Program-made: the position numbers and the translations under genes
The notes under the pieces: generated by a model
Seen by the model: the letters and a program-made list of their open reading frames with translations, nothing else
Told to the model about the DNA's origin: nothing
The model's database searches: none
DNA from: Gemmatimonas sp.
GTDB lineage: Bacteria; Gemmatimonadota; Gemmatimonadetes; Gemmatimonadales; Gemmatimonadaceae
Reading direction: 5' to 3'
NCBI GenBank assembly: GCA_965279375.1
Contig: OZ257156.1
Coordinates: forward strand, 1,312,001 to 1,376,000
DNA length: 64,000 bases
In this document: positions 64-64,000 of the stretch, piece after piece
Position numbering within the stretch: position 1 is the stretch's first letter
How the letters are laid out: each line of letters begins with the position of its first letter

Positions 64-182
64 GCCTAACCTTGCGTTGGTGCAGACAGCCGCTCCGCGG
101 TGCGCCGTGTAACTGCGGCGCTAGCGCGCCTCCGTTCACGGCTTCCTATTTGATCGGCTGCAGCACAACGCCATCGTTAGCT
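64..182 (+). repeat. attC site, family B
   Basis: GCCTAAC...GTTAGCT, imperfect palindrome. Confidence 0.92.
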
Positions 183-335
183 CGCACTGCTGCGGTGTCG
201 TGGCAATCACGGTAAACCCAGACGGAGGACCGGGGCGATGGTGGTTTGGAGAGGGCTCACGGCCGCCGTGGTGGAACGCGCGTGGCCGCGACATCTGCCT
301 CATCGCAGTTGGCCGGCCGCCGCATTCGGAGTGAC

Positions 336-875
336 GTGAGCGCTACTACCCGTCCTGCCCTGTCGCCTCGCCTATCGGCGGACGAGTTTGCGCGCTGGTA
401 CTGGCGCAAGGATGAACTCCTTCCCTTCTGTCGCCAGCTCGGTCTGCGCACCGGGGGCTCGAAGCCCGAGGTGGCCGCGCGAATTCTCGCGCACTTAGCC
501 GGGTCTCCCCCTGCGCCGGTGGTCGCGCGTCCGCGCACGGGGCCGATGCCGACGACGTTTTCGCTCGACACCACAATCGGTCCGGGCTGGCGCTGCAATC
601 CGGCGCTGGGCGCGTTCCTGCGCGGAGAGTGCGGCGCGGGCTTTCGCTTCAACTTGGCCGTCCGCACGTTCATCCATACGGCCGTGGGTCACTCGCTACG
701 CGACGCAGTCGCCTGCTATCGCGCGAGTGTCGCGCCCGGCGCGCCCGCCCAGCCGATGCTTCCGCAGAACGAGTACAATGCGCATATGCGCGCGTACTTT
801 CGGGCGAACCCGGGTGCGACAGCGAGCGCCGCGCGCGCGGCCTGGCATGCGCGTCGGCAGCACCGTGCGAGCTAA
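336..875 (+). CDS. SAP-domain / DUF6434-like protein
   Basis: YWRKDELLPFCRQLGLRTGGSKPEVAARI SAP-like motif; C-terminal QNEYNAHMRAYF; GGAG before GTG 336; stop lies in attC R''. Confidence 0.7.
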   Translation: MSATTRPALSPRLSADEFARWYWRKDELLPFCRQLGLRTGGSKPEVAARILAHLAGSPPAPVVARPRTGPMPTTFSLDTTIGPGWRCNPALGAFLRGECGAGFRFNLAVRTFIHTAVGHSLRDAVACYRASVAPGAPAQPMLPQNEYNAHMRAYFRANPGATASAARAAWHARRQHRAS

Positions 876-980
876 CCTTGCGTTGCGCTTGACAGGGCCT
901 CCAAAGATTGCGGCCTGTTCGCTGACGCTCACGGGCCGCAACTTATGGGAAGGCCCTGCAAGCGAACGCTATCGTTAGAG
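870..980 (+). repeat. attC site, family A
   Basis: AGCTAAC...GTTAGAG. Confidence 0.92.
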
Positions 981-1206
981 AGCGAACCGCGAATCCGTGA
1001 TTGTTTGAGGGGCGAGTGCGGCATCGCTGCGTCGGCAAGCGACGTATCCGCGGCCTTCGTGCGTGTCTGGGAGCACCGCGCCAGCCGACCGCCCCAACGG
1101 TCACTGGCGCGCCGGCCCGGGGGGCCGCCGACTTCCCGCGTGTCGACCCGATTCGCCCGAACGAGCCCTGCTGTCGGTCCCCAATCCAGCGCGCTAGGAT
1201 TCATCC

Positions 1207-1443
1207 ATGCCGACCGTGCTGCGGGTGGAGGGGTATCGGTTCTTCTTCTACAGCAATGAGCGGGGCGAGCCCGCCCACATTCATGTAGAACAGGCCGAGC
1301 GGTACGCCAAGTTCTGGCTCGCCGATGTCACCCTGGCCGAATCCCGCGGTCTTCGGAGTGCGGAGCTCTCGGCGCTCCGTCGGCTGGTGTTTGCACATCG
1401 CATTCAGCTTCAGGAGGCGTGGGATGGGCACTTCAGCCGTTAA
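1207..1443 (+). CDS. DUF4160 protein (putative toxin of DUF4160/DUF2442 pair)
   Basis: MPTVLRVEGYRFFFYSNE..EPAHIHV...AKFWL signature. Confidence 0.88.
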   Translation: MPTVLRVEGYRFFFYSNERGEPAHIHVEQAERYAKFWLADVTLAESRGLRSAELSALRRLVFAHRIQLQEAWDGHFSR

Positions 1444-1666
1444 GATCGAGCCGCTGGTCGTCGCGGTCACCTGCTCGGACGTCGCCCTCCGGGTCGAACT
1501 CGCGGATGGGCGCGAGATCGTCGCCCCCTTAGAGTGGTTCCCGCGCCTGCGCGACGCGACCGCAGCGCAGCGCGCGAATTGGCGCCCGATCGGCGGCGGC
1601 GTCGGCATGCATTGGCCGGAGCTGGACGAAGATCTCTCGGTCGCCGGGCTCCTCGCGACGCACTGA
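1424..1666 (+). CDS. DUF2442 protein (putative antitoxin)
   Basis: LADGREIVAPLEWFPRL...GMHWPELDEDLSVAGLL; overlaps DUF4160 gene. Confidence 0.88.
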   Translation: MGTSAVKIEPLVVAVTCSDVALRVELADGREIVAPLEWFPRLRDATAAQRANWRPIGGGVGMHWPELDEDLSVAGLLATH

Positions 1667-1692
1667 CGCCACTCCGGCGTCGTTTGTTCGCT

Positions 1693-1802
1693 CTCTAACC
1701 TTGCGTTGCGGCTGACAGGGCCTTCACGGAGTGCTCCCTGTTCGCTGCGCTCACTGGTCGCCTCCTGTTGAAGGGCCCTGCAGCCGAACGCGAACGTTAG
1801 AC
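1693..1802 (+). repeat. attC site, family A
   Basis: CTCTAAC...GTTAGAC. Confidence 0.92.
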
Positions 1803-1978
1803 CGTGGTGGCCACGTGGTCGCATCCGGCGACATGCCCGCTGGGCCAAGGTGGGTCTTGGAGGGTCTGCGCGTGTGTTCGTGTGCGCCAAGAGCGGCGGG
1901 CCCAAGCGCTCCGGGGTAGTCGCGAGGGACCTGCGGCCGAGCATAGATTTCGGTTCGCCCTCCTCCGGATGCTGTCCT

Positions 1979-2212
1979 ATGGTTGATCGGAACGCCGAAT
2001 CTCTCGCTGAGCAGCTGTTGACTTGGCCGACCGCCGATCGCGCGCGGCTTGCCGCGTTGTTGCTGGCGAGTCTGGAGCCGCCGGAAGCGGAGGTCGCCGC
2101 GGCGTGGGACGTCGAACTCGCGTCGCGCGCGGCCGCGCTGGATGCGGGACAGGTGCAGAGCATCCCCGCCGCGGACGTGTTCGCCGAGCTCGACCGCCGT
2201 CTGCGCGCGTGA
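1979..2212 (+). CDS. Addiction-module antitoxin component
   Basis: DRARLAALLLASL...AAWDVELASR...IPAADVF; GTGA overlap with toxin. Confidence 0.82.
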   Translation: MVDRNAESLAEQLLTWPTADRARLAALLLASLEPPEAEVAAAWDVELASRAAALDAGQVQSIPAADVFAELDRRLRA

Positions 2213-2496
2213 TCGCGCGGTTCCATCCCGAGGCGCAAGCGGAGCTGATCGAGTCCGCGCTCTACTACGAGGCGGCCCGCCCGGGGCTCGGGCACCAGTT
2301 TCGCGACGCGGTGAAGAGCGGCCTCGACCGTGCACTGGCGCAGCCCGAGAGCGGGAGTCTCCGCGCCGGTCTGCGCCGGCAACTCGTCGCGGGCTTTCCC
2401 TACGACGTGGTCTATCGCGTCGTGGCCGGGGAGCTCGAGGTGCTGGCCCTGGCGCATCACCGTCGGCGCCCGGGCTACTGGCAACGGCGCGCCTGA
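2209..2496 (+). CDS. RelE/ParE-family toxin
   Basis: FHPEAQAELIESALYYE...FPYDVVYR...LALAHHRRRPGYW. Confidence 0.88.
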   Translation: MIARFHPEAQAELIESALYYEAARPGLGHQFRDAVKSGLDRALAQPESGSLRAGLRRQLVAGFPYDVVYRVVAGELEVLALAHHRRRPGYWQRRA

Positions 2497-2520
2497 CCGG
2501 GAGTCGGTTCGAGCACCACG

Positions 2521-2631
2521 GTCTAACCTCGCGTTGCGGTTGACAGGGCCTTCAAAGATTGTGGCCTGTTCGCTGTCGCTCACTGGCCACAACTGATTGA
2601 AGGGCCCTGCAACCGAACGCAATCGTTAGAT
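2521..2631 (+). repeat. attC site, family A
   Basis: GTCTAAC...GTTAGAT. Confidence 0.92.
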
Positions 2632-2640
2632 GGCGCCCTG

Positions 2641-3009
2641 ATGTTGAACCACAACCCGAGCACTCCGATGCGGTTGCACCCGACGGCGGTCTTTGCGATG
2701 ATCGGGCTGCTGTTCATCGTCCTGGCGCTGCCGCTCATCCGGCGCCGCGTCCCGCCGAACGGCCTGTACGGCGTCCGCATTCCCGCGACCCTTGCCGACG
2801 AGGGCGTGTGGTACGCCGTGAACGCGCAGAGTGGGCGCGACCTGCGCCTCCTAGGCGCGGTGGTGGTCGTGCTCGCGGTCGCGGTGTGGGCGCTGGCCTG
2901 GCCGGTGTCACGGCAACTGCTGGTCCTGTTCGCGGCCCTCACCGGTGGCACGCTCGTGGTCGTCGTACGCGCGTTCCGTCACGCGAACCGCCTCCGGCGC
3001 GAGCGGTAA
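2641..3009 (+). CDS. SdpI-family membrane protein
   Basis: PPNGLYGVRIPATLADEGVWYAVN motif, three hydrophobic segments; start may be 2668. Confidence 0.82.
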   Translation: MLNHNPSTPMRLHPTAVFAMIGLLFIVLALPLIRRRVPPNGLYGVRIPATLADEGVWYAVNAQSGRDLRLLGAVVVVLAVAVWALAWPVSRQLLVLFAALTGGTLVVVVRAFRHANRLRRER

Positions 3010-3146
3010 TACGCCCGCCACCGCCGGCCTGGTGCCGGTCTGCGCGTGAGTCGAGCGCGCACAGCTAGCGCCTGGCCGCGTTCGGCGTATACCGTAGCAC
3101 CATGCCGCCGATGGTCAGACATTCCCCTTGCTGACGGAGTGCCCGC

Positions 3147-3599
3147 ATGCCTCGTGTGACGCTTCGACTGCTGAGTGGCCTCGCCGGCGTGTTCGCTGCG
3201 CCACTGCTCGCCCAAGCCCAGGGACGAGACATGAAGGCGCCCTTTGCTGGGGAACTCGCCGCGCCGGCGATGCGGCTGCGCCTCGAGCGGTTTCAAGTCG
3301 GGCTCGGCGTAGGCGCGCGGGGGATCACCGCAGACAGTCTGCGCGTCCTGGCGGCGGCGGAACGCACCGCGCGACTCCTCGCCGTCCGTCGCGCCCTCGC
3401 CCCGCACGACACGCCGTCCGTGTCCGGGAGCGATGCGCCGACGCACCTCGAGTGTCCGATGCCCATCGCCTCGCGGAGTCCAGGCGCGACGGCGGAGATG
3501 CCGGTGTGGCGTGCGGACAGTCTCGTCGAACGCCGCAGCGTCCCGTCCGCCCAAGTGCGTGCGTGTACGAACGCGCTCGGTCCAGCGCCCACGCGCTAA
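3147..3599 (+). CDS. Secreted hypothetical protein
   Basis: GGAG RBS; signal-peptide-like N-terminus ending LAQA. Confidence 0.55.
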   Translation: MPRVTLRLLSGLAGVFAAPLLAQAQGRDMKAPFAGELAAPAMRLRLERFQVGLGVGARGITADSLRVLAAAERTARLLAVRRALAPHDTPSVSGSDAPTHLECPMPIASRSPGATAEMPVWRADSLVERRSVPSAQVRACTNALGPAPTR

Positions 3600-3616
3600 G
3601 GGAGCGGCGCGCCGCC

Positions 3617-3727
3617 ATCTAACCTTGCGTTGCGCTTGACAGGGCCTTCAAGGAGTGCCACCTTGCTCGCTGCGCTCGCTGGTGGCATCCTGTTGAAGGG
3701 CCCTGCAGCAGAACGCGAGCGTTAGGT
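3617..3727 (+). repeat. attC site, family A
   Basis: ATCTAAC...GTTAGGT. Confidence 0.92.
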
Positions 3728-3761
3728 AGCGCTTCGACGGCTTGAGACGCAGACTTTTCCG

Positions 3762-4538
3762 ATGCTCGCTCACGCGCGTCGTGTCCTAGTCATCGTACTC
3801 GGTGTCTGCCTGTGGGCGGTCAGTTTGCCGACGCGGGCGCTCGCGCAGCAGGCGGCGTTGCTCGGGACGGTCTTGGAGGACTCGACGGAGCGGCCCATCG
3901 TCAACGCTGAGATCGCCATCCCTGCGCTGCAGCGTCTGGTGCGCAGCGACTCGGCCGGCAACTTCAGCCTCAGCGGCATTCCGTCGGGCGTATACCGGGT
4001 GACGGTGCGCGCCGTCGGCCGTGCCCCGCTGCAGGAGACGATTGCATTTGGGACGGCCGGGCGGATTGAACGCGATTACCTCCTCGCCCGCGCCACGACA
4101 ACGCTCGAGCAGGTGGACGTGCGGGCGGACGCGACCGTGGAGGATGTTCGCTTGGCCGAGTTCCATGCGCGCCGACGGTTCGGCACCGGGCGGTTCGTGA
4201 CGCAGGAGGTGTTGGCGCAAGCGGACGGGCGGGCACTAGCCGACGTGCTGGCGAGTCGCATTCCCGGGCTGCGCAGCGAGTCGATGGGGGGCAACCAACG
4301 CGCGATGGTCAGTGCCCGGGGGGTGATCAGCTTCCGCAGTCAGCGCTGCTACGTGAAGGTCATGGTCGACCGCATCCTGCGCTACAACGGCACCCCCGAC
4401 CCCCTGTTCGACATCAACACGCTCGATCCGGCGACGCTCGTGGGGGTGGAGTACTACACGACCGCGCAAGTGCCCGCCGAGTTCAACGGCACAGGCTCAC
4501 CGTGTGGCACGCTCGTGATTTGGACGCGCATGCGCTAA
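3762..4538 (+). CDS. Carboxypeptidase-regulatory-like domain plus TonB-plug-like secreted protein
   Basis: Signal peptide; GTV.EDST..PI...SDSAGNF...G.YRVTVRAVG; C-terminal GVEYY...PAEF...CGTLVIWT. Confidence 0.8.
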   Translation: MLAHARRVLVIVLGVCLWAVSLPTRALAQQAALLGTVLEDSTERPIVNAEIAIPALQRLVRSDSAGNFSLSGIPSGVYRVTVRAVGRAPLQETIAFGTAGRIERDYLLARATTTLEQVDVRADATVEDVRLAEFHARRRFGTGRFVTQEVLAQADGRALADVLASRIPGLRSESMGGNQRAMVSARGVISFRSQRCYVKVMVDRILRYNGTPDPLFDINTLDPATLVGVEYYTTAQVPAEFNGTGSPCGTLVIWTRMR

Positions 4539-4588
4539 GGTCGCGTCCTCCTGGTGCGGCCGCGGCATCACGCATCGCGTCACGCGCT

Positions 4589-4707
4589 ACCTAACCTCAC
4601 GTTGGTGCAGACAGCCGCTCAGCGGTGCGCCGTGTAACTGCGGCGCTGGCGCGCCTCCGTTCACGGCTTCCTATTGGAGCGGCCGCTGCACAACGTAAGC
4701 GTTAGGA
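4589..4707 (+). repeat. attC site, family B
   Basis: ACCTAAC...GTTAGGA. Confidence 0.92.
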
Positions 4708-4726
4708 AGCGCACCTACATTCACTC

Positions 4727-5389
4727 ATGCCAACAGACTGGGCGACATTCTTAAGCGGGGCTGCAGGCGCTTTCGGGGCTGCATGGCTAGGGGCGTACGC
4801 TGGCTTCCGTCGAAGTCGGATGGAGCGGGCCCTCGATCGTCGCATTGCCTGGCATGAGTCGACCATTCAGGTTCTCGCTCAGTATGAGGAGGCCCTAGAA
4901 CGACTGCGATCACACTCGCTCAACGTTCTGATCGTGCAGAGGACAGCGCCAGCTACGCAATCTTCCGGTGAATCCGCAGCAGACTTGCCAGAGCGAGTCA
5001 AAGTCCCCGCAGCACTGTGGAACGAGCTACGACAGGTTGAGGTCAGGGCAAGGGCAGCACTCCGACTTGGAGACCTCTACACAGAAGGGCGAACCCAAGT
5101 CGATTGCTCGGTGGCTCTCACGCGCTCCGTAAACATCGTGTCCAGCCACTGGCTTGATCTTAGCGATGAGCCTGAGATTCCGTGGGTCCACCTTGCCGCA
5201 GGCTACTCGGTCGCCGAAGTTCGCAACAGCCTTCAGGAATCGATGCGGGTTGTGCTTGAGTTGGATGGCTTCGTCGCCAGTTTGCTCGGCAAGCGATATC
5301 GGAGATGGAGACGGCTAAGGGTTGTTCGTGAGCTTCAAGCGGACCACGATCGTTTGCAGCAGCTGATCGCAGAATCTCAGGGCGCGTAG
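4727..5389 (+). CDS. Hypothetical protein with N-terminal membrane anchor
   Basis: 220 aa ORF starting just after the core site; hydrophobic FLSGAAGAFGAAWLGAYAGF. Confidence 0.7.
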   Translation: MPTDWATFLSGAAGAFGAAWLGAYAGFRRSRMERALDRRIAWHESTIQVLAQYEEALERLRSHSLNVLIVQRTAPATQSSGESAADLPERVKVPAALWNELRQVEVRARAALRLGDLYTEGRTQVDCSVALTRSVNIVSSHWLDLSDEPEIPWVHLAAGYSVAEVRNSLQESMRVVLELDGFVASLLGKRYRRWRRLRVVRELQADHDRLQQLIAESQGA

Positions 5390-5419
5390 AATGCCTTCAC
5401 TTGAGCCAGGCGGAGCAAT

Positions 5420-6922
5420 ATGAGTGTTGAGAATATGGAGAAGGCCAAGGAGAATCGACTTCTCTGGCCGCCGATATCCGACGCTGTGGACACTTACTTG
5501 CGGCGCCGCGCCTCTAATGCCGATGGATACGAACTGACTTGGCGCCTGGTTCACGTATGGGAGGCGATAGCCGCCACGCTTTCCGCGGCGGCAGTGACCC
5601 GTTTGCGAGAAGAGCCGAAGTTTGAACCTCTCTATCGCCGCGCCCGTGAGTACTACCACGGAAGATTCTGGGATCCGATAGCACAAGGCTTCAACCGTTC
5701 GCAAAGTGGGCTCGACGGCAGCGCGACGCGCAGAATCGACGTCCTGTGGGACATCAGCAATGGCGATGTTTCCTCCTCACGCTTCCTCACGAGTCTGCAG
5801 AGCTTTCTTCTCGCCAAAGAAATCGACCTCTCTCCGCTGGTGAAGGAGTGGGAACGAATCTGTGAGGTTCCTGATGAGACGAAGGCTTCCGGAAAATTCG
5901 CCGTTCGCGAGGCTTTGAGGCACGTCAACACGTTCCGAAATCGCTTTGCGCACGTTCCATTTCCGTACGACGTCCTGAGGGACGTTTCGGACGCCTATGC
6001 TCGCGTGACGGAGCAGCTGTTCAGCTTCGCCCCCGCACCTTTTAGCTCGTTTACGCAGGACGAGTCATTGGAAAGTCCGCTCTGCGGATCAATCCTGTGG
6101 AAGGATCGCGCGATGCGTGGTGGGGAGAACTTTCGCACTGTAAGTGAATGGCCGGCAGGTTATGGCTTCTCCTATCCGCCGATCGCAAAGAAGTCGTCGC
6201 CAGCTGAGAGTTGGAGCGCATCTCCATTCGTACATGTTGACTCGATGCTTCGACCGTACGTAATGACACGTCTTACGTCGATAACGAGCGGAACCTGGGA
6301 GTTTACGAGATTCAGAGCGGAGGCAAGTTCGGTAATTGCTATTCAGAATGCCGAAGCAGTCGCCGACCTTCCGGCACCAACACAAGCGGAGTACTCGACC
6401 CCACAGGACGCGGCGGATAGGGCTGAAGCAAAGGAGATCGAAGAGACGGTCCAAGCGCAGGCGCCGTCGTCTGCCACTCTGGCTCAGGATGAGCCATCTT
6501 CGTTTGACGAAGCGCTTCGGTTCGTGAGAAACGAGGACTTCGAGCCCGCAATTCGATACTTCCAGCGGTACGTCGAAGCTCGCCCCGCATACCATATCGG
6601 CTGGCTTCGCCTAGGGCACGCACAGCGAGAGCTCGCGATGCGCCGCCGTTTCGCGGACCCCGAAGGTGCAGCAACGCTGTTTGACAGCGCTATTGAATCG
6701 CTGTCTCAGGCGACGGGTCATGTTGAGAGGAATCGCAAGGCGCAGGCGCTCTACGAACGTTCTAAGGCGTACTATCACAGGGGGAACTTTCTCTCACAGC
6801 ACGAGGATCTGGGGAGTGCCTCAAAGGATGCAAGTGAAGCGTGCGATCTCTCTCCTGATACTTCGTACGAGAGTTGGCGAGAGTACGTAACGAACCATGC
6901 AGTCGCGCTGGACGCTTCCTAA
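5420..6922 (+). CDS. Putative HEPN-like (RxxxxH) domain plus C-terminal TPR protein
   Basis: RNRFAH at about residue 173; TPR-like AIRYFQRYVEARPAYHIGWLRLGHA and ALYERSKAYY; GGAG RBS; stop in attC. Confidence 0.65.
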   Translation: MSVENMEKAKENRLLWPPISDAVDTYLRRRASNADGYELTWRLVHVWEAIAATLSAAAVTRLREEPKFEPLYRRAREYYHGRFWDPIAQGFNRSQSGLDGSATRRIDVLWDISNGDVSSSRFLTSLQSFLLAKEIDLSPLVKEWERICEVPDETKASGKFAVREALRHVNTFRNRFAHVPFPYDVLRDVSDAYARVTEQLFSFAPAPFSSFTQDESLESPLCGSILWKDRAMRGGENFRTVSEWPAGYGFSYPPIAKKSSPAESWSASPFVHVDSMLRPYVMTRLTSITSGTWEFTRFRAEASSVIAIQNAEAVADLPAPTQAEYSTPQDAADRAEAKEIEETVQAQAPSSATLAQDEPSSFDEALRFVRNEDFEPAIRYFQRYVEARPAYHIGWLRLGHAQRELAMRRRFADPEGAATLFDSAIESLSQATGHVERNRKAQALYERSKAYYHRGNFLSQHEDLGSASKDASEACDLSPDTSYESWREYVTNHAVALDAS

Positions 6923-7027
6923 CAGTGCGTTGCTGCTGGCAGGGCCTTCAAGGATTGCGGCCTTGTTCGCTGCGCTCACTGGCCGCAACCTATTGAAGGG
7001 CCCTGCAGCAGAACGCGAGCGTTAGGC
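6917..7027 (+). repeat. attC site, family A
   Basis: TCCTAAC...GTTAGGC. Confidence 0.92.
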
Positions 7028-7075
7028 GCCTCGCTGCATTGAATCCACACACCACTTACTCTTGAACTAGCGCAA

Positions 7076-55323: not shown

Positions 55324-55434
55324 ACCTAACCGGGCGTTGCGGTAGACGCGGCCGTCAGGAATGGTGGCCTGTTCGCTGGCGCTCACTGGCCGCAATCTAT
55401 GATTGGGCGCTGCAAGCGAACGCGCTCGTTACAC
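55324..55434 (+). repeat. attC site, family A
   Basis: ACCTAAC...GTTACAC. Confidence 0.88.
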
Positions 55435-55503
55435 TGCGCCCGGCCATCGTACACGCACCCGCCGATACGAGCGTCGGCAGGTCTGACGCACGTCCGCGCT
55501 CGC

Positions 55504-56640
55504 TTACTCGACGGCGAGGAACGCCACGATGGGCGACGCCGGGTCGAGCAGGCCCACCACCGCGCGATAGACGTCGACGCCGTGCTCGCCGCTCGTGAAC
55601 ACCACGACCCCGCGTCGCCGTGCCGGGTCGAAGTACGCGAGCGTGCGCTCCCCGCCGGGTCGGCTGTTTAACCCGGTATGCATGAACACCGGTCCGGTGG
55701 CGTAGTCGAGGCGCACCCACCCGAGTGCTTGCGTGACGCGCTGCGGGCAATCAGCCGGCGGCGTGTGACACTGCCAGGTCAGCTGGGGACCGCGCGCCGG
55801 TTGCAGCCGTTCCGCAGCCAACGCCGGCGAGAGCCCGTCGCCGCGCAACACGCGCGCGAGGAAGCGGGCATAGTCCCCGGCGGTGGTGATCAGATTGTTG
55901 CCCGCGTTCCAGTGCGCGGAGTCCTCCACTTGGGGCGCGCCCCAGTGCCCCGCCGAGTCCAACGGGACGGCGAGGCGTCCGTTCATCCAGGCGCGCCGCG
56001 AGTACGACGTGCTCCGCATGCCGAGCGGACCGAAGACCATCGCCTCGGCCAAGTCCTCGAATGTGCGGCCGAGCGTGCGCTCGGCGAACCTCGCGGCGTA
56101 GTCGTAGCCCTCGCCGGCGTAGGCGTAGGCGCTCCCCGGCGCGAACGCGAGCTTCCCTCCCGGACTCCGGCCGCGCCAGTTCGGGAGGCCCGTCTGGTGC
56201 GCGAGCGCGTGGCGCACCGTCAGTCGCTGCGCGCGTGGGTCGCCGCTGACATCGGGGTCCACCCACGCGGATGCCATGGGCGCGTCGAGCGAGAGCCGTC
56301 CGGCCGCCACGAGGCGCAGGAGGACCTCGGCCGAGATGGGCTTCGTGACCGAGGCGAGCCCGTAGAGCGTCGCGGGGGTCGCGGGCACCCCCGCGGATTG
56401 CTCGCCATAGGCGCGCTCCAGCACGACGCGACCGTCCTCGATCACCGCCAGACTGACGGAGGCCACGCCGTAGCGCGTCAGGAGTGCGGGCACGCGTGCA
56501 TCGAGCGTTGCGCCGACCGCGGCCGGGGCCACGCCCACGGAGGCGCGGCGCCCGCAAGCGGCGGTTCCGAGCAGCAGCACGAGCGCGCGTGCGACGCTCG
56601 TCCGACCTCGGCGAGCGCACGGTATGTGGAGGAGCGGCAT
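55504..56640 (-). CDS. Serine hydrolase, beta-lactamase-related
   Basis: ASVTK, LAHQTGLPNW, YAGEGY, HTG; start uncertain. Confidence 0.88.
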   Translation of the reverse strand: MPLLHIPCARRGRTSVARALVLLLGTAACGRRASVGVAPAAVGATLDARVPALLTRYGVASVSLAVIEDGRVVLERAYGEQSAGVPATPATLYGLASVTKPISAEVLLRLVAAGRLSLDAPMASAWVDPDVSGDPRAQRLTVRHALAHQTGLPNWRGRSPGGKLAFAPGSAYAYAGEGYDYAARFAERTLGRTFEDLAEAMVFGPLGMRSTSYSRRAWMNGRLAVPLDSAGHWGAPQVEDSAHWNAGNNLITTAGDYARFLARVLRGDGLSPALAAERLQPARGPQLTWQCHTPPADCPQRVTQALGWVRLDYATGPVFMHTGLNSRPGGERTLAYFDPARRRGVVVFTSGEHGVDVYRAVVGLLDPASPIVAFLAVE

Positions 56641-56803
56641 CGGGTCCCCGGCGGTAAGTACCGCGCGCATGCGGAGCGTCATGGCGCGACGTACGACAGC
56701 GCGAGCCGTGGAATGGTTGGGAGCGGTCGCGCGAGATCGCGTGTCCGATCCGTTTCGCGGTGTCGCGTGGCGCTGGTACGGGGCGGCGTACGCGGGCGGC
56801 GCA

Positions 56804-56907
56804 GTGTAACCTTGCGTTGCTGCTGACAGGGCCTTCACGGAGTGCGGCCTATCGCTCGCTGGCCGGATCCTGTTGAAGGGCCCTGCAAGCGAACGCGATC
56901 GTTAGGC
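56804..56907 (+). repeat. attC site, family A (short central deletion)
   Basis: GTGTAAC...GTTAGGC. Confidence 0.88.
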
Positions 56908-57023
56908 CGCCTCGCGTTATGTCTGTTTGCTTCGGCGGGGGATCCCCGCTACCGCTGATCCAAACCGTGCACGCGCTGGCGCCGTCCAAGAGAGATACCC
57001 TTCTTCACCTCTCTGGACCTGCG

Positions 57024-58484
57024 ATGCGCTGCCTGCTGCTTGCCACTCTCTCCGTGCTCTGGGTCGCGCGGCCACTTGCCGCACAAGCGCCGCCGAGCGC
57101 GTCGGGCGCGCGTGTTCCGATGCTCTCGGCATCGGACGCGCAAGTCGATTTCGATGTGCTGCGACGGGCATTGGAGGAAGCACACGGCGGACTGTATCGC
57201 TACCGCACGAAGCCCGAGTTGGATCGCCGCTTTGATGCGGCGCGTGCGCAGCTCACGACGCCCGTGTCCCAGCTCGCGTTCGCACGCCTGCTGTCGGAGA
57301 CCATTGCCACCATCGGCGATGGTCACGCGCGGCTCGAACTCGATTCGTTGACGATCGCGACGCTGGCCGACGCATGCGTGTTCCCCCTACGGGTCCAGTT
57401 GGAAGGGGAGCGCCTGATGCTGCAATACAACGATTCGCCCGCCGACACGACGCTGCGTCCGGGGATGGAGCTTCGCTCGATCAACGGGCATCCGGTGTCG
57501 GCGGTCGTGGGCGCCCTGCTGCCGACGGTCGCGGGCGATGGCGAGATCCTGACCGGTAAGAGGACACGGCTGGCCCGCACGTTCGCCACGCTCTATTGGC
57601 TGTTCGTGGAACAGGCGAGCACGTACGTGATCACGGCCCGCGATGCAGGCGGCCGGACGGTGATGGCCACGCTCGCTGGCATTCGCGAAGCGGATCGCCT
57701 CGCGGTCCAGAATCCGGTCAACGCGACTCTCCTGCAGCATGCGGCGCGCCTCGCCGGGCCGCGCGGCAATATCAGCGTGGCGTTTTCGCCCGACGCATCC
57801 GTCGCGCACCTGCGCGTGCGCGCCTTCGACGGCGCCACGTTCGTGGCGACGCTCGACAGCGCCTTCGCGGCCATCAACGCCAACGGGACTCGCTCGCTCC
57901 TCCTCGATCTCCGGGGCAACGGCGGCGGTGTGGATCTGTATGGGGCAGCCCTGGTGTCGCATTTCATCGACCGCCCCTTTCGATACTTCGATCGGATCGA
58001 GCTCACGACGATTGCGCCCTCCTTTGCGACATGGAAGCCCGCGACCTTCGAAAACCTCCGAACCGGCACCGTGCCGGGCCCCACGGGCGGCTTTCGCGTC
58101 ACGCCAACGCTCCATGAAGGCGTCGCGATGCAGTCCCCGGCTGCGGTGCCATTCCGCGGCACTGTCGTGGTGCTCATCGACGGGGGCAGCTTCTCCACGA
58201 CCGCCGACGTCGCGGGGCAGCTCCGCGCCTGGGGACGCGCGACGTTCGTGGGGGAAGAGACGGCGGGCGACGCCGCCGGCAACACGTCGGGGCTGAACGC
58301 GCTGATCGTGCTCCCCCACTCGCAGCTCCGCCTCAAGGTCATGATGTACGGCTACTGGAACGCGGTGCACCCCGACACGCCGGGCCGTGGGACGCGGCCC
58401 GACCACGTGGTGGTCGCGCGGATCGCCGACTTGCTGCAGGGCACGGACGCGGCGCTGGAGCTGGCGCGGAGGCTGGTGAAGTAG
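57024..58484 (+). CDS. S41-family peptidase
   Basis: Signal peptide; DGHA, LDLRGNGGG, SFSTT, VGEETAG, G.RPD. Confidence 0.9.
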   Translation: MRCLLLATLSVLWVARPLAAQAPPSASGARVPMLSASDAQVDFDVLRRALEEAHGGLYRYRTKPELDRRFDAARAQLTTPVSQLAFARLLSETIATIGDGHARLELDSLTIATLADACVFPLRVQLEGERLMLQYNDSPADTTLRPGMELRSINGHPVSAVVGALLPTVAGDGEILTGKRTRLARTFATLYWLFVEQASTYVITARDAGGRTVMATLAGIREADRLAVQNPVNATLLQHAARLAGPRGNISVAFSPDASVAHLRVRAFDGATFVATLDSAFAAINANGTRSLLLDLRGNGGGVDLYGAALVSHFIDRPFRYFDRIELTTIAPSFATWKPATFENLRTGTVPGPTGGFRVTPTLHEGVAMQSPAAVPFRGTVVVLIDGGSFSTTADVAGQLRAWGRATFVGEETAGDAAGNTSGLNALIVLPHSQLRLKVMMYGYWNAVHPDTPGRGTRPDHVVVARIADLLQGTDAALELARRLVK

Positions 58485-58501
58485 GGGTGCCGAGAACGGC
58501 C

Positions 58502-58612
58502 GCCTAACCTTGCGTTGCTGCCAACAGGGCTAGCAAGAATTGCGGCCCTATTCGCTGCGCTCACTGGTCGCATCCCGTTGCAGGGCCCTGCTGCCGAATG
58601 CAATCGTTAGGC
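58502..58612 (+). repeat. attC site, family A
   Basis: GCCTAAC...GTTAGGC. Confidence 0.9.
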
Positions 58613-58860
58613 AGATTTCCATAGCTCGTGGCAACGACTCTCGCTGTTGCTCGAGGCGCCGCGCCGAGCCGAACAGCGTTCCAGAGCCAGCCACTGGTAT
58701 GCAGGGCGGGCGCGGCACGGGGCTGACCGTGTGATGGTCGGTGGACGGCGCGGGTCGCGACCGCGCCATTGCGTGTACAGATTGCGACACCGTCATCGTG
58801 CACCGGCCGCGATGCACCCGCCTTCGCGCGGATACCCACGTTCAATCGATCGTGCTCCCG

Positions 58861-59976
58861 ATGTCCGCTCTCCTCCTATTGGCGTCGCTGCTCGCCTCCG
58901 CTCCGCCGTCGGCTGCCCGTCCCGCGGCGGACTCGGTGCAGACCCACCTGCAGCGGCTCGCCGACAGCGTCGTCGCCGCGAGGCCGCGCATGCCCGGGAT
59001 CATCATTGCAGTGGAGCAACAGGCCACGGGCCAGCGATGGAGCGTGGCGGCGGGCCTCGCGGATACGGCGCGGAAGATCAGGCTCACCCCCGACCAGCCG
59101 GTGCGACTGGCGAGCAACACGAAGACGTACACCGCTGCCGCGGTGCTGCGGCTCGTGGAAATGGGACGGCTTGCGCTCAGCGATCCGCTGACCAAGCATC
59201 TGCCGCCGTCCATCGATTCTCTCCTCCGCGGAGATGGCTACGCGACGGATCGCATCACCATCGAGTAGGTACTGAATCACCGGGCGGGATTCAATGAACA
59301 CCCCGCCGTGCGAAGCTTTCTAACAAAGCTGTGCACCGATCCGCAGCATCACTGGACGCCTCGCGAGCAGCTGCAATGGCTGGTGGATAGTCTGGCGCCG
59401 GTGGGGCCGCCTGGAGCGCAGTTCCGCTATTCGGACGATGGCTACGTGTTGCTGGGGCTGATCGTCGAGCGCCTGAGCGGGAAGCCCCTCGGCCCCGCGG
59501 TGCGGTCGCTCGTGCGTTTCGACAAGCTGGGGCTGCGCCATACCTGGTGGGAAACGTTGGAGCCGGCACCCGCCGGAGAACCTGACCGGGCGCACCAGTA
59601 TCTCGGTGGGCTCGACGCGTACGGCATCGACCCCTCCTTCGACCTATTCGGCGGCGGCGGCATTGTGGCGCCAATGGCTGACCTCGCGCATTTCCTCACC
59701 GCGCTGCTGAACGGACAGGTGTTCGAGAAGCGAGAGACGCTGGACACCATGATGCGTCCGCGGAGCCCGGAGATGAACGGGTATGGCATGGGCCTCTTCG
59801 GCTCAACGGTGGGCGGCCTGACGGGGCGTGGCCATAGTGGCTTCTGGGGCACGACTGCGATGGTGTTCCCGGACGCGGGGGTGACGATCGCGGTCGCCAT
59901 CACGGATCAGGGCGAGTTTCGACAAGCGAACGCCGTGCTGGGCGCGGTGCTGAAGGTGTTGGAGGCCAATCGGTAA
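58861..59976 (+). pseudogene. Serine hydrolase (D-Ala-D-Ala carboxypeptidase / beta-lactamase-like) interrupted by one in-frame TAG
   Basis: ASNTK...ITIE*VLNHRAG...YSDDGY...GHSG in a single frame; TAG at 59266-59268. Confidence 0.85.
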
Positions 59977-60242
59977 AGCACCAGGTGCGCGGCAGCATCC
60001 GCCGCGCGAACCCGGACCATCGACAAGCGCGTCGAATCCTGCGTGACGAATGGCCGTGGCGAGCGCGCTTCGCCCACCGACGACCAACGGCGAGCGGTAC
60101 TACCTCGAATACCCCAAGGCGTCGTGCTACGGCCGCGCCGTCTCCCGAGTCGTCTCGCGGATCTGCCTCACGATCGTCACAGCCGGCGAGGACCTAAGTG
60201 ATTGCGCATGCTGTATGCGCCCGCCTGACTCGTCGTTGATCT

Positions 60243-60272
60243 GCCTAACCTCGCGTTGGTGCAGTCGGCCGC
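60243..60272 (+). repeat. Truncated attC (left half only, family B)
   Basis: GCCTAACCTCGCGTTGGTGCAGTCGGCCGC matches the 31394 site from CTAAC onward, then diverges; no R'. Confidence 0.75.
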
Positions 60273-60476
60273 GGACGGTGACCGCGGTGACGTGACGGGG
60301 CGGCCATCACCGAGGCGCAGTGCGCGGGTCCCCGGCCCGCGGACGCATCGGTCGAGCCCCTCAGGGTCGGCTCGGCGGGACGTGCCGCAACCCTCGCGTG
60401 CCCGTGGGTGTCTACTGTGGACCGCACCGGGACCGTGCGGTCACTCCCGTTCCGACGCCAACCACCGCGGCCACGC

Positions 60477-61556
60477 ATGATTCGACGCTCCGCGCTTCTC
60501 CTTGCCACCTTGCTCGTCGCGAGCGGACTCTCGTCATCGGCCGTGCGCGCGCAGCCAGTCCGCGTCGTCTATCGCGAAGCGGCGGATGCGTTCGAGATTC
60601 TCGACCACGTGAGTAACTGGTGGCCGGGGTACAACGAGCCGCGGTATCAGCAGTTTTGGGCGGACTCGATTGGCGTCCAACCCGGCGACTCCATCCAGTT
60701 CGCGCGGTACGCCGCCTTGCGCGAGACGTACTACGACAAACGCGGGCAAGGGAACAGTCAGCCTCGCCGTGATGGCAGCGGGCTCTTCACGGATCGCCTC
60801 GCCGTGCAGGCGGATCCCCTCGCGGCCGCCTTCTACGAGGCGGAATCCATCCCGGAGGCCATTGCGTCCCTCGGCAGGCTCTTGACCGCGAACGAACAGG
60901 CCTTCCTGACGGCCTTCTATGCGCATTTTCGCTCTCGGATCGCACCGCTGCTTCGCCAGACGCGCGAACGCACCGCAGCGTCGCGCGCCGCGACCGCGAG
61001 CACGCTCCAGGCGCCGGAGGTCGCGCAGTATCTGACACAGGTCCGGCGCTGGTTCGGCGTCGATAGTGTACCCTTCACGGCCCTCTACGTGTGGTGGCCC
61101 GACTCGTCCCGCACATCGGCGAATCCCCATGGCGTGCATCTCGTTCTCCGAGTCCGTCCCAGCGCCGCGGACACCGTGAACAACGCCGATGTCGTGGCGC
61201 ATGAAGTCGTGCATGTGTTCGCCGCCACCATGGATTCGGCGCGCCAACGCACGCTCAGCACGACGCTGCTGGACGGATGCGCGGTGCCCGCCGGCGTGCG
61301 CCGGCTTGCGGTGCTCGAAGAGCCCATCGCTACTGTCCTCGGCAATATGGAGTTCCGGCGCCGATTTGCGCCGCGTCGGTTTCAGTGGAGCCGGCAATGG
61401 TACGGGGACGACTGGGTTGAGCTGCTCGCGCGCCTCTTGTATCCCGTGATCACGTCGGCCCTGAGCACCGAAACGCCCATTGGCGCGGCCTTCACACGGG
61501 ACGCGACCGCGATGTGCGCGCTAGCCGCGCGGGCGCGACGCCCCCAGGCGCCGTGA
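60477..61556 (+). CDS. Secreted HEXXH metallopeptidase-like protein
   Basis: Signal peptide; VAHEVVH with downstream LEE. Confidence 0.7.
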   Translation: MIRRSALLLATLLVASGLSSSAVRAQPVRVVYREAADAFEILDHVSNWWPGYNEPRYQQFWADSIGVQPGDSIQFARYAALRETYYDKRGQGNSQPRRDGSGLFTDRLAVQADPLAAAFYEAESIPEAIASLGRLLTANEQAFLTAFYAHFRSRIAPLLRQTRERTAASRAATASTLQAPEVAQYLTQVRRWFGVDSVPFTALYVWWPDSSRTSANPHGVHLVLRVRPSAADTVNNADVVAHEVVHVFAATMDSARQRTLSTTLLDGCAVPAGVRRLAVLEEPIATVLGNMEFRRRFAPRRFQWSRQWYGDDWVELLARLLYPVITSALSTETPIGAAFTRDATAMCALAARARRPQAP

Positions 61557-61657
61557 GGTCAGGCGGGGGCGCTGCACACGCACCGCCGGCGGGGCGGCGT
61601 GAGACGGCGCTGCCGCGGAGGGCCGATGCCCGCATCACCGGCCGTCGGAGCGACCAA

Positions 61658-61692
61658 TTGAAGGGCCTTGCGAGCGAACTCGCTCGTTGAGT
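61658..61692 (+). repeat. Degenerate attC (right half only, family A)
   Basis: TTGAAGGGCCTTGCGAGCGAACTCGCTCGTTGAGT; no upstream TAAC. Confidence 0.7.
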
Positions 61693-61708
61693 GGCAGCTC
61701 TCCGTGCC

Positions 61709-62464
61709 CTACCTCGGTGCTCGCACCTGCCGGATGACGTTGGCGAGCACCTCGGGCTGCTCCTTCTGGATGTAGTGCCCCGCTTTGGGCACGGGTTCCA
61801 GCTGCGCCGCCCCGGTCAGCCGCAGCCAGCTGGCGGCCAGCTTCGTGTCCAGCCGGAGGAGTTGTTCGCCTCCCGCGGGATCACCGACGCTTCGGATGAG
61901 CACGCGCACGGGATACGCGACGGTGTCTGCGGGGAGTGCGTCGAGGCACTGTTCCTGCGCATCAAACTCGCGCTTCATCGTGCCCGAGAAGGTGACCTTC
62001 TTGACGAGTCGCAGCAGCCGAGCCGCGGCGGGCATCTCGCGCTGCATGGCGGCCCAATGCCCGAGCGGGGTTGCATCCACGAGGACGAGCCCGGCGACGT
62101 CGTCCGGATAGCGACGGGCGTACGCATAGGCGTACTGCCCACCCAGCGAGTGGCCGACGAGGACGAACGGAGGTGCGTGCCCCGTCGCGTGCAACTGCGC
62201 ATGGAGTTCGCTGGCCACCGTGCAGGGATCGCGCGGCGCGCTACTGGCCGGTCGCGCGCCGTAGCCCGGGCGATCGTATGCCACCACGCGGATACTGTCA
62301 CCCAGCTGCTGGATGGTCGGCCGCCACACGCGCGCATCGTCGCCGAGTCCCGCGATGAACACGACCGTCGGCGCCGCCGTAGGCGGTTGGGCGGCCAGCG
62401 GTGCGGCGGCGCCGCACATCGCCAGGAGCGTCAGGACGAGCGGGGTACGACAGGGATGCGGCAT
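61709..62464 (-). CDS. Alpha/beta fold hydrolase
   Basis: YDRPGYG, LVGHSLGG, GLVLVDA, AGHYIQ. Confidence 0.92.
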   Translation of the reverse strand: MPHPCRTPLVLTLLAMCGAAAPLAAQPPTAAPTVVFIAGLGDDARVWRPTIQQLGDSIRVVAYDRPGYGARPASSAPRDPCTVASELHAQLHATGHAPPFVLVGHSLGGQYAYAYARRYPDDVAGLVLVDATPLGHWAAMQREMPAAARLLRLVKKVTFSGTMKREFDAQEQCLDALPADTVAYPVRVLIRSVGDPAGGEQLLRLDTKLAASWLRLTGAAQLEPVPKAGHYIQKEQPEVLANVIRQVRAPR

Positions 62465-62622
62465 GGGAGCGACTGCAAGAGGGCGCTGGGCACACGTCGT
62501 CTGGGACGCTACCCCACGCCGGAGGCCGGGGTCCCGCGCCGCGCCCGCGCCGGTGAGGTGGGGATGTCCGCGACGCGCTCGTGCGGCATCAGGTGGCGGC
62601 GATCCGATCGGCGTCCGCTGCC

Positions 62623-62733
62623 ACCTAACCTTGCGTTGCGCTTGACAGGGCCTCGAAGAACTACGGCCTTGCTCGTTGCACTCGCCGGCCGCAACCTATG
62701 GTCGGTCCCTGCAGCAGAACGCAATCGTTAGGC
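62623..62733 (+). repeat. attC site, family A
   Basis: ACCTAAC...GTTAGGC. Confidence 0.9.
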
Positions 62734-62755
62734 AACTCACTCCGAGGAATGACCG

Positions 62756-63286
62756 ATGTCGAATGAGACTCTCCCGACGACCCCGCAGCTCCTCGCGCGC
62801 TTCGCCGCGAGCTGCGTCTCCGTGTTTGGCGGCCTGATGGCGGCCATGACGGTGGCCTCACCGCGCGGCCTCACCATGAAGTCCGCCAAGGTCGCTGCGA
62901 TTGAGGTCGCCATGATTGTGGCCGGGTACGCGATTACCAAGTACTGGCTCCCGCGTCGACGCGGCGTGATCACGGGCTCCCCGCGCTCGCACGTGGTGGC
63001 CGGCCTCAGCGCGCCGCTCGTCCTTGGGGCGCTGTCGACGCAGGTGCAAGGCGTGAGCACGGTGGGGATCGCGGCACTCAGCGCGGCCACCGGCACGACC
63101 CTCGCGCTCGCCCATTGGCTCCTAACTCGTCGACCGCCTCGCGCCCCGCAGCCGACGCTTGAGGAGCGCGAAGAAGCCGCGGAGCTCGCACTCGCGCGAG
63201 CGTTGGCCGAGGTGGAGGGGAAGCGCGATGTGATCCCACTGGCGCGACCAGAGCGGACGCGGGACTCGCGCGGACGCGTCGCCTAG
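62756..63286 (+). CDS. 4-TM membrane protein
   Basis: GAGG upstream; four hydrophobic segments; acidic C-terminal tail. Confidence 0.65.
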   Translation: MSNETLPTTPQLLARFAASCVSVFGGLMAAMTVASPRGLTMKSAKVAAIEVAMIVAGYAITKYWLPRRRGVITGSPRSHVVAGLSAPLVLGALSTQVQGVSTVGIAALSAATGTTLALAHWLLTRRPPRAPQPTLEEREEAAELALARALAEVEGKRDVIPLARPERTRDSRGRVA

Positions 63287-63475
63287 CGCCCTGCCTCCAT
63301 CCTTCGTCGGCCATCGGGTGCGACGGGTGCACTCGGTACGTCGCGGCCGGAAACGTGCGACGTCGCGACGCTCGCGTGGCCGTGCATCGACGACACGGAC
63401 GCTGGCGCGTGTGCGACGCCTCGGCGTGTCTGACGCATGCTGGCGGACGATGCGGGGCCGGGGGATGACCAAGTT

Positions 63476-63588
63476 GTCTAACAGCGCGTTGCTGCTGGCA
63501 TGGCCTTCACAGAGTGCGGCCAATTGCTCACTGCGGTCGCCAGCCGCAGTTTATGACAGGGCCCTGCAGCCGAACGCAATCGTTAGAC
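63476..63588 (+). repeat. attC site, family A
   Basis: GTCTAAC...GTTAGAC. Confidence 0.9.
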
Positions 63589-63642
63589 CGCGGCCGGGTC
63601 CTGTGGTGACCAGGTAGAATGCCTTCGCGCTGGAGACTCCGT

Positions 63643-64000
63643 ATGTCGCCGATCGTCGACTCCATCCGCGCCGAGTACGAACGCTACCAGGCGTTGGCGG
63701 AGCGCGCGCTGGCCCAAGTACCGGACGCGCTCCTGAGTGCGCCCGGTCCCGGCGGCGGGAACTCGCTGACGGTCATTGCGTGGCATCTCACCGGCAACCT
63801 GCGCTCGCGCTTCACGTCGTTCCTGACCGAGGATGGCGAGAAGCCGTGGCGCAATCGCGAGGAGGAGTTTGCCGCGCGCGTGGTGTCGCGCGAGGAACTG
63901 CACACGCACTGGACCGCCGGGTGGGCGACCCTGTACGACGTGCTCACCACGCTGACGGATGCCGATCTGCAACGGACGGTCACCATTCGTGGGCAACCGC
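63643..64000 (+). CDS. DUF1572/DinB-family protein (partial, runs off window; not in ORF track)
   Basis: My translation: MSPIVDSIRAEYERYQALAERALAQV...NSLTVIAWHLTGNLRSRFTSFLTEDGEKPWRNREEEF; GGAG RBS. Confidence 0.85.
   Translation, partial: MSPIVDSIRAEYERYQALAERALAQVPDALLSAPGPGGGNSLTVIAWHLTGNLRSRFTSFLTEDGEKPWRNREEEFAARVVSREELHTHWTAGWATLYDVLTTLTDADLQRTVTIRGQP

What the first reader, a model, noticed from the sequence alone, without database searches (positions are those of the whole stretch)
64..64000. Very large integron cassette array with its own attC families, probably in a Gemmatimonadota genome
Seen: 46 intact attC sites in 64 kb, continuing past both edges. They have the canonical extra G in L'' (GTTGCTGC vs GCAGAAC) and compensatory L-box changes (GTTGCGCTTG/CAAGCGAAC, GTTGCTCTTG/CAAGAGAAC, GTTGCTATTG/CAATAGAAC, GTTGGTGC/GCACAAC). 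Known: homogeneous attC sites and interspersed TA cassettes typify sedentary chromosomal integrons, best studied in Gammaproteobacteria such as Vibrio and Xanthomonas. Inference: the RDSAG beta-propeller and CarboxypepD-plug cargo suggest Gemmatimonadota, where I do not know of a characterised array this large.
Basis: partly seen in the sequence, partly recalled or inferred. Interest (0 to 1): 0.85.

Follow-up and report, generated by a model that had tools for sequence, protein, structure and literature searches.

The report
Large inverted-type chromosomal integron, Gemmatimonadaceae
This is the middle of a real 123-slot gene-capture array (a chromosomal integron) in a Gemmatimonadaceae bacterium; it is a large example of a known kind, with about 98 swappable-looking gene cassettes followed abruptly by a decayed tail.

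Summary
The array is real. The window holds 47 attC-like sites; 35 pass a strict intactness test, not 46. It is the middle of a 123-site, 146-kb array. An intact integrase and attI lie 65 kb upstream, with intI pointing towards the cassettes (inverted layout). The host is Gemmatimonadaceae. The flipped-out base is C on the recombining strand, not the canonical G.

Matching cassette ends (77 of 96 perfect) and duplicates ending at the crossover (7 of 8) indicate recent integrase activity. Intact sites drop from 93 of the first 98 to 2 of the last 25; the break lies inside this window.

The kind is known. Published supplements list a 79-attC integron in Gemmatirosa and an inverted integrase in Gemmatimonas aurantiaca. 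This scan found a 10-cassette Gemmatimonadota example before (e1-948051).

Added here: the larger size, IntI in 88 of 151 family genomes, inverted layout in 14 of 14 family loci, and no candidate LexA box at intI. New member of a known kind; interest 0.38.

The parts
1..64000 (+). Middle of the cassette array. Its platform lies OUTSIDE the window, 65-66 kb upstream: intI (327 aa, G000:C1:1,245,997-1,246,980, + strand, transcribed towards attI) and attI (crossover G at G000:C1:1,247,265, 284 bp after the intI stop)
   Evidence: intI: TIGR02249 384 bits against cut-off 265; VchIntIA 2a3v E 3e-76 over residues 18-328; open frame with GLR, KG, HTLRH, GH and LYT motifs. attI: 11 of 11 nt match to the reverse complement of the first cassette's inverse core site; an AAT-N4/5-GTT ending also seen by eye in most relatives' printed attI regions
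64..63588 (+). 47 attC-like sites (array sites 63-109). Family A 110-113 nt, family B 119-121 nt. Starts: 64B, 870, 1693, 2521, 3617, 4589B, 6917, 9291, 10132, 11413, 14380, 16272, 17452B, 18855B, 19759, 20808, 21539, 23692, 24454B, 25304, 26120, 26848, 28758B, 29609, 30690, 31394B, 33034B, 34282, 37119, 38603, 40208, 41521, 42437, 43869, 44694, 48258, 48843, 49867, 50700B, 52859, 54503, 55324, 56804, 58502, 61615 (half), 62623, 63476
   Evidence: folding and covariation
64..48367 (+). Intact ('live') zone within the window, sites 63-98; 34 of 36 pass the strict test
   Evidence: sites 67 and 96 fail: their left and right L arms do not match
48368..64000 (+). Start of the decayed tail, sites 99-109; 1 of 11 passes. 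Sites 100 and 101 carry GTG at the crossover. Extra half-site near 60245
1207..1666 (+). Cassette 65: DUF4160 + DUF2442 pair (putative TA; the TA label is recalled); identical to cassette 44
1979..2496 (+). Cassette 66: addiction antitoxin + ParE toxin
   Evidence: PF09720, PF05016
3762..4538 (+). Cassette 68: CarboxypepD_reg + TonB Plug; identical to cassette 42
7076..9169 (+). Cassette 70: fused AriAB (PARIS-type anti-phage protein)
   Evidence: PADLOC AriAB 632 bits, full length
9433..10137 (+). Cassette 71: HAD hydrolase; second copy at 24605-25309; five copies in the whole array (92-99.9% identical)
11550..14165 (-). Cassette 73: HD-CE + HATPase protein, reverse orientation, probable defence gene
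   Evidence: PF24391, PF13589
14526..15902 (-). Cassette 74: Fic protein (SoFic-like), reverse orientation
16406..17443 (+). Cassette 75: Mrr-type nuclease (PDC-S02)
19128..19764 (+). Cassette 77: nucleotidyltransferase + HepT RNase TA pair
27016..28677 (+). Cassette 85: signal-peptide-like start, six 57-aa repeats (171 bp) with two Cys each, and a weak C39-like peptidase domain
   Evidence: (E 0.0015, below cut-off)
28928..29556 (+). Cassette 86: BrnT + BrnA TA pair
31707..33014 (+). Cassette 89: Ser/Thr kinase (PD-T4-6/Mad6-like kinase domain)
41754..42420 (+). Cassette 95: HigB + HTH TA pair, the last TA cassette recognised in the array; 92% identical to cassette 40
44904..48126 (-). Cassette 98: BlaI-type repressor, M56 peptidase and serine-hydrolase (PF00144) operon, reverse orientation
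49976..50692 (+). Cassette 101: SRA-HNH nuclease, the only low-GC cassette beyond number 100
51559..52855 (-). IS481-like element (transposase 51602-52834) inserted just before attC 102
   Evidence: PF00665, PF13011; ends approximate
53229..63286 (.). Tail cargo with host-like GC: P450, RibD-C, two PF00144 hydrolases (one in two ORFs, 58741-59976), S41 peptidase, alpha/beta hydrolase

Best explanation
A sedentary chromosomal integron of the inverted-integrase layout, recently active. SHOWN in sequence: an intact IntI, an attI downstream of its 3' end, and 123 co-oriented attC-like sites whose bottom strands fold into R/L-box hairpins, typically with T and C flipped out six bases apart. INFERRED from established integron biochemistry: IntI cuts folded bottom strands at G|TT, excises cassettes as circles and inserts them at attI. 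The array sits just right of the origin with bottom strands on the leading-strand template, which should keep excision low, and about a dozen TA cassettes penalise block loss. INFERRED here (about 0.55): the tail is a ratchet. New cassettes enter at attI, excisable ones are sooner or later removed or recycled, and those whose sites have failed are pushed to the far end and stay, giving a sharp intact-to-decayed boundary near site 98. INFERRED (about 0.6): intI is not under direct LexA control.
For: IntI: TIGR02249 over cut-off, full alignment to VchIntIA. Cassette ends: the 7 nt after each GTTA match the reverse complement of that cassette's own inverse core perfectly in 77 of 96 junctions; shuffled pairing gives a mean of 2.7, maximum 8 in 1000. 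Recent activity: six cassette pairs are 100% identical and one 99.9%; in 7 of 8 near-identical pairs tested the identity stops within 2-10 nt of the crossover on both sides. Folding: probability of the R/L-paired form above 0.1 in 95 of 98 sites up to 99 (median 0.82). Replication: GC-skew minimum at 1,237,553 and maximum at 3,772,688, dnaA at 1,199,091, so the array is on the right replichore; this matches 25 of 30 sedentary integrons in PMC5371416 (passages). Sedentary: the genes upstream of intI are the same in two same-genus genomes, G172 and G175. Boundary: 93 of 98 against 2 of 25 intact; low-GC cassettes 34 of 100 against 1 of 23. LexA: TTCG-N7-TTCG lies upstream of 17 of 18 lexA genes and of recA but of 0 of 22 intI genes (1 of 22 with one mismatch, background 23%).
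Against: No recombination or expression was observed. No cassette promoter was identified. The boundary was chosen after seeing the data, so its p-values are optimistic. The named 69-site Gemmatirosa array shows no decay trend among model hits (rho -0.07), although a model search misses the most decayed sites. The absence of TA cassettes from the tail is not significant (0 of 25 against 12 of 98, p 0.12). The upstream context matched in only 2 of the 30 intI-family loci compared, many of them short or weak hits. One duplicate (42/68) has its left break 84 nt inside an attC, which is not an IntI crossover. The LexA box is a motif inference, untested.
Confidence: 0.92

Rival explanations
1. A real integron that has recently frozen: the parts look intact but IntI is no longer expressed or active.
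For: No promoter found upstream of intI; no candidate LexA box.
Against: Open frame with the catalytic motifs; identical duplicates with crossover-exact ends; 93 of 98 proximal sites intact.
Confidence: 0.06
2. The repeats are not attC sites (REP-like or other repeats), or the array is an assembly artefact.
For: Nine related sites lie outside the array. IntegronFinder's own covariance model was not available, so it was not run.
Against: Adjacent IntI and attI; R/L-box geometry with covariation; cassette-end matching. Short-read contigs match the listed inter-attC pieces without differences and one spans intI to cassette 2 (one sample, probably the source, so not independent).
Confidence: 0.02
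3. For the tail only: one event, not a ratchet, froze it (the two GTG crossovers at sites 100-101 and the IS481 in cassette 102), or it is an older array onto which a younger one was built.
For: The break is abrupt and coincides with those lesions. Tail cassette 112 has an 84% homologue at the distal end of the G161 array and cassette 123 an 82% homologue beyond the end of the G050 array, as expected for old inherited cassettes.
Against: Lesions at two or three sites would not stop excision between two good sites further out, yet 23 of 25 tail sites are damaged in different ways. Tail sites belong to the same families A and B. The tail is not shared as a block by the 30 same-genus genomes searched.
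Confidence: 0.4

Closest known systems
Gemmatirosa kalamazoonensis KBS708 plasmid 1 integron (NZ_CP007129.1; Neron et al. 2022, PMC9024848)
   Same: Same family of hosts; 79 attC listed in the supplement; 69 hits to my model, all downstream of intI on its strand; top-strand G (bottom C) in 62 of 69.
   Different: This array is longer (123 sites, 146 kb against about 43 kb), lies on the main chromosome near the origin, has longer cassettes and a clearly decayed tail; IntI identity 58%.
Inverted (reverse) integrase integrons: Treponema denticola type; Gemmatimonas aurantiaca T-27
   Same: intI transcribed towards attI, in the direction of the cassettes (PMC3607928 passage). T-27 is flagged Inverted_integrase = 1 in Cury 2016's supplement.
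   Different: T-27 is listed with only 3 attC. Cury 2016 found the group paraphyletic, so it is a layout rather than a clade. No Treponema IntI was in my tree.
Vibrio cholerae sedentary chromosomal integron (VchIntIA, VCR sites)
   Same: About 100 or more cassettes, homogeneous sites, bottom strand on the leading template, TA cassettes along the array; defence cargo.
   Different: Here intI is inverted, the flipped-out base is C rather than G, predicted folding probability is high (97% above 0.1 against 52% for sedentary integrons in PMC5371416, computed by my own approximation), and there is no candidate LexA box at intI.

Membership tests
Integron (IntI/attI/attC) | Tyrosine recombinase with the IntI-specific insertion and intact catalytic residues | tested here: met
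   TIGR02249 384 bits over 265; alignment through the insertion to 2a3v with a single one-residue gap; motifs
Integron (IntI/attI/attC) | attI next to intI, ending in a GTT core that heads the first cassette | tested here: met
   11 of 11 nt match at 1,247,265
Integron (IntI/attI/attC) | [quoted passage not shown] | tested here: met
   extrahelical pair is T-N6-C in 73 of 97 matched sites
Integron (IntI/attI/attC) | Match to the IntegronFinder attC covariance model | not testable with these tools
   Model not available; Rfam has no hit in the window
Integron (IntI/attI/attC) | Cassette promoter Pc | tested here: inconclusive
   No + strand sigma-70 consensus between intI and attI; read-through from intI is possible but untested
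Integron (IntI/attI/attC) | IntI-catalysed recombination | not testable with these tools
   Indirect only: crossover-exact duplicates
Sedentary chromosomal integron | Chromosomal, more than 10-19 cassettes, homogeneous attC | tested here: met
   123 sites; median identity 78% in family A (first 40 of 76 compared), 93% in family B (18 sites), 60% between
Sedentary chromosomal integron | Platform inherited vertically at a fixed locus | tested here: inconclusive
   Same upstream genes in G172 and G175 only; IntI in a 100%-supported clade of six Gemmatimonadota proteins (quick tree)
Sedentary chromosomal integron | attC bottom strand on the leading-strand template (a trend, not a rule) | tested here: met
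   origin inferred from skew and dnaA
Inverted-integrase integrons | intI on the cassette strand, attI beyond its 3' end | tested here: met
SOS-regulated integrons | LexA box in the intI promoter | tested here: not met
   Candidate host box TTCG-N7-TTCG absent; the box itself is inferred

The most novel reading that the evidence does not exclude
Gemmatimonadaceae are an overlooked integron-rich lineage (IntI over cut-off in 88 of 151 family genomes) running a coherent variant: inverted intI, C-type extrahelical base, easily folded attC sites and no direct LexA control. Their large arrays are missed because short-read assemblies break at them. This complete array also shows a sharp live/fossil boundary produced by a ratchet that turns distal cassettes into fixed host genes while defence and TA cassettes stay in the mobile zone.
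Probability: 0.4. Interest if true: 0.62.

Novelty: new member of a known kind. Interest (0 to 1): 0.38.

Why it matters
It is a complete, well-preserved large integron from a phylum whose integrons appear only as table rows or passing mentions in the papers I saw. It offers a ready test set for three open points: whether an IntI that evolved with C-type sites prefers them, what induces an inverted integrase that lacks the SOS box, and how cassettes become fixed genes. It is also a source of about 35 low-GC cassettes, several matching anti-phage systems (Shedu, PD-Lambda-2, PARIS, Mrr, TIR) and many unannotated. It does not change what integrons are known to do.

Tried and rejected
Rfam scan of the window: no hit. 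One family-A attC against 50,697 phage records: no match. Promoter scan around intI/attI: one consensus hit, on the opposite strand inside intI. No RNA holder listed for the intI-attI stretch; this is no evidence on expression. Read-laying: four runs of one sample; the joints have sides of at most 34 nt and fall in attC repeats, so I treat them as repeat artefacts, not excisions; no alternative first cassette was seen, but contigs drop rare variants. Counting arrays with the genome-wide RNA search failed because it scores 25 candidates per genome (83 of 150 genomes with at least one hit); counts came from fetched regions instead. My generic hairpin detector has false positives (6 and 2 in two 53-kb control stretches) and put the G083 array on the wrong strand; the covariance model corrected this. 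mis-registered site 101; one search fixed it (7 of 7 core match, folding probability 0.11). A gradual GC gradient along the array was rejected (rho 0.07), as was gradual decay within the first 100 sites (rho 0.06). The tree is a quick one with unusable outgroups, so no root or direction of transfer is claimed; rows L008 and L024 (stop in the aligned stretch) and L040 (short) were dropped. A 12-kb 'giant cassette' at 0.912-0.924 Mb was rejected because it holds leuS and other housekeeping genes. Paper searches; none listed a study devoted to Gemmatimonadota integrons, to a sharp decayed tail, or to a Gemmatimonadota LexA box. The library lacks most subscription journals.
Full report
OBSERVATION. 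The window is G000:C1:1,312,001-1,376,000 of a 5.31-Mb single-contig genome. A motif scan finds 45 attC-like sites in it and profiles built from them find 47, all on the + strand; resampled windows give none (0 in 100). One more half-site lies near 60245. Two site families dominate: A (110-113 nt) and B (119-121 nt), about 60% alike. [quoted passage not shown] Two bases stay unpaired, a T and a C six bases apart. Larouche and Roy (PMC3053210, passages) state that most attC sites have G there and that C raised excision by three of the four integrases tested. Under a strict test 35 of the 47 window sites are intact.

THE WHOLE ELEMENT. The array has 123 sites from 1,248,093 to 1,393,539, about 2.75% of the genome. 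An intact intI lies at 1,245,997-1,246,980, on the same strand as the cassettes. attI lies 284 bp beyond its stop codon and matches the first cassette's end in 11 of 11 nt. This is the inverted layout. Skew and dnaA put the origin 9-47 kb to the left, so attC bottom strands lie on the leading-strand template, the orientation that Loot et al. (PMC5371416, passages) link to low excision and arrays of about 100 cassettes.

EVIDENCE OF ACTIVITY. Each cassette's first bases should match its own inverse core site if it entered as a circle. They match over 7 nt in 77 of 96 junctions, against 2.7 when shuffled. Thirteen groups of repeated cassettes occur. Six pairs are identical and one is 99.9% identical. 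In 7 of 8 near-identical pairs tested, identity ends within 2-10 nt of the crossover on both sides. The eighth (42/68) breaks 84 nt inside an attC and leaves site 67 with mismatched arms, which looks like homologous exchange between repeats.

LIVE ZONE AND TAIL. 93 of sites 1-98 are intact but only 2 of sites 99-123; there is no trend within the first 100. The break falls at about window position 48,400, beside two GTG crossovers and an IS481-like insertion. Cassette GC is bimodal; low-GC cassettes number 34 of the first 100 and 1 of the last 23. Both cut-offs were chosen after seeing the data. Tail cargo is mostly hydrolases and metabolic enzymes. My reading is a ratchet in which unexcisable cassettes collect at the far end; a single freezing event or an older inherited array remains possible. 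Against generality, the named Gemmatirosa array shows no such trend among model hits.

CARGO. I scanned 65 window ORFs and 96 ORFs outside it against Pfam, 36 of them also against PADLOC. Twelve cassettes look like TA modules (19, 29, 37, 40, 43, 44, 56, 65, 66, 77, 86, 95); the TA label for the DUF433/DUF5615 and DUF4160/DUF2442 pairs is recalled, and the partner gene of cassette 56 was not scanned. Defence-type hits include Shedu (cassette 1), FRG, GmrSD + HEPN, TIR, PD-Lambda-2 A/B/C, three Mrr-domain proteins, AriAB, SoFic and a kinase. TA and defence cargo are known integron traits (PMC10661359 and PMC12614218, passages).

HOST AND RELATIVES. DnaA and IntI point to Gemmatimonadaceae; IntI falls in a clade of six Gemmatimonadota proteins (quick tree of 100 rows). 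IntI passes the curated cut-off in 88 of 151 family genomes and 20 of 31 genus genomes, both counts including this genome. The family tally includes four unpublished genomes (G007, G033, G034, G134; two over the cut-off); no other claim rests on them except the tally. The figure is not comparable with the published 20% of Gammaproteobacteria with complete integrons (PMC8618304, passage). Of 20 family intI regions fetched, 14 were given to the covariance model and all 14 have sites downstream of intI on its strand; the other six lie near contig ends, and two of those showed a same-strand site. Among 80 more distant IntI loci, 22 had model hits: 18 inverted and 4 canonical, one of the latter a Gemmatimonadales genome. 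Walked arrays gave 14 (G050), 36 (G031), 36 (G083), 13 (G057), 19 (G119) and 8 (G070) model hits, and 22 contiguous plus 8 scattered in G161. A seventh array walked is left out of this list because it may duplicate another count. These are lower bounds from a model built on this species.

REGULATION. A direct repeat TTCG-N7-TTCG precedes 17 of 18 lexA genes of the order and this genome's recA. It is absent from 22 of 22 intI upstream regions as an exact match. If it is the LexA box, these integrases are not directly SOS-controlled.

WHAT IS KNOWN. Gemmatimonadota are listed among integron-bearing phyla (PMC8618304, passage). Cury 2016 (PMC4889954; passages; 11 of 16 supplement files searched) flags the G. 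aurantiaca integrase as inverted, with 3 attC. IntegronFinder 2.0 (PMC9024848; passages; supplement rows) lists 79 attC for G. kalamazoonensis, 1 + 3 for Gemmatimonas sp. TET16, none for G. phototrophica, and 39-133 per element in the planctomycete Gemmata obscuriglobus. My model finds 69 sites in the named Gemmatirosa record, all in the inverted layout; named records may overlap the handle set and are not added to its tallies. The inverted layout is described for Treponema (PMC3607928, abstract and passages; PMC3575428 and PMC9668308, passages). A Xanthomonas preprint (10.1101/2025.06.18.660453, passages) had no passage on distal decay. Unsearched supplement files, and bioRxiv supplements, which are closed, could hold further Gemmatimonadota counts. 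This scan has reported the same layout before, including a 10-cassette Gemmatimonadota case.

VERDICT. A real, probably active sedentary integron; the largest Gemmatimonadota array among those I saw, by about half again. It works like a Vibrio-type chromosomal integron and meets every integron criterion that I could test except an identified cassette promoter. New member of a known kind; interest 0.38.

Noticed in passing
lexA upstream regions L264, L267-L283; G000:C1:3,875,989; recA upstream near 4,021,900; 5,097,757: Candidate Gemmatimonadales LexA box, a direct repeat TTCG-N7-TTCG: 17 of 18 lexA promoters, recA, and one exact longer copy 160 bp before a second RecA-family gene. One paper search listed nothing on it.
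   Followed up: partly
G000:C1:904,835-924,935 (L197, L198): Three attC sites of this family on the - strand. One closes a serine-hydrolase cassette inserted at a non-attC site; two of them bracket 12 kb holding leuS, a dehydrogenase E1 and a RelA-TGS-ACT-AAA protein, so excision there should be lethal.
   Followed up: partly
G000:C1:316,904-318,422 (L195): Two-site cluster without integrase. Homologues of its neighbouring genes lie about 22 kb beyond the end of the G050 array, suggesting a detached or domesticated tail.
   Followed up: partly
G000:C1:109,650; 673,930; 1,402,523; 3,705,116: Four solo, partly decayed attC-like sites.
   Followed up: no
cassette 112 (G000:C1:1,377,780-1,378,990) and L221:15,718-16,808: The same NUDIX + GNAT cassette (84%) ends in a family-A site here and a family-B-like site in G161. 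Within the array, pairs 40/95, 49/67 and 50/58 have attC identity of 75-77% against 87-92% for the bodies: attC sites appear to be swapped between cassettes.
   Followed up: partly
window 48843-48963: Site 99 is unlike families A and B but matches sites in many same-genus genomes at 80-88%; probably an imported cassette.
   Followed up: partly
window 27016-28677: Unannotated repeat protein: six 57-aa units with two Cys each, then a weak C39-like domain.
   Followed up: no
window 34486-36974 (-), 22028-23275 (-), 5420-6922 (+), 38726-40213 (+): Large cassette ORFs with no confident Pfam or PADLOC hit, most of them low in GC; candidates for new defence genes.
   Followed up: no
L188:9537-10550 (-), cassette 7: Class A beta-lactamase-family gene (PF13354, 180 bits) in reverse orientation; activity unknown.
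   Followed up: no
cassettes 5, 9 and 34 (G000:C1:1,252,355; 1,256,852; 1,283,613): High-GC cassettes with no convincing + strand ORF; 5 and 9 are 69% alike. They may be reverse-oriented or non-coding.
   Followed up: no
L081: A Gemmatimonadales integron with the canonical divergent layout and nine sites, so the inverted layout is not universal in the order.
   Followed up: no
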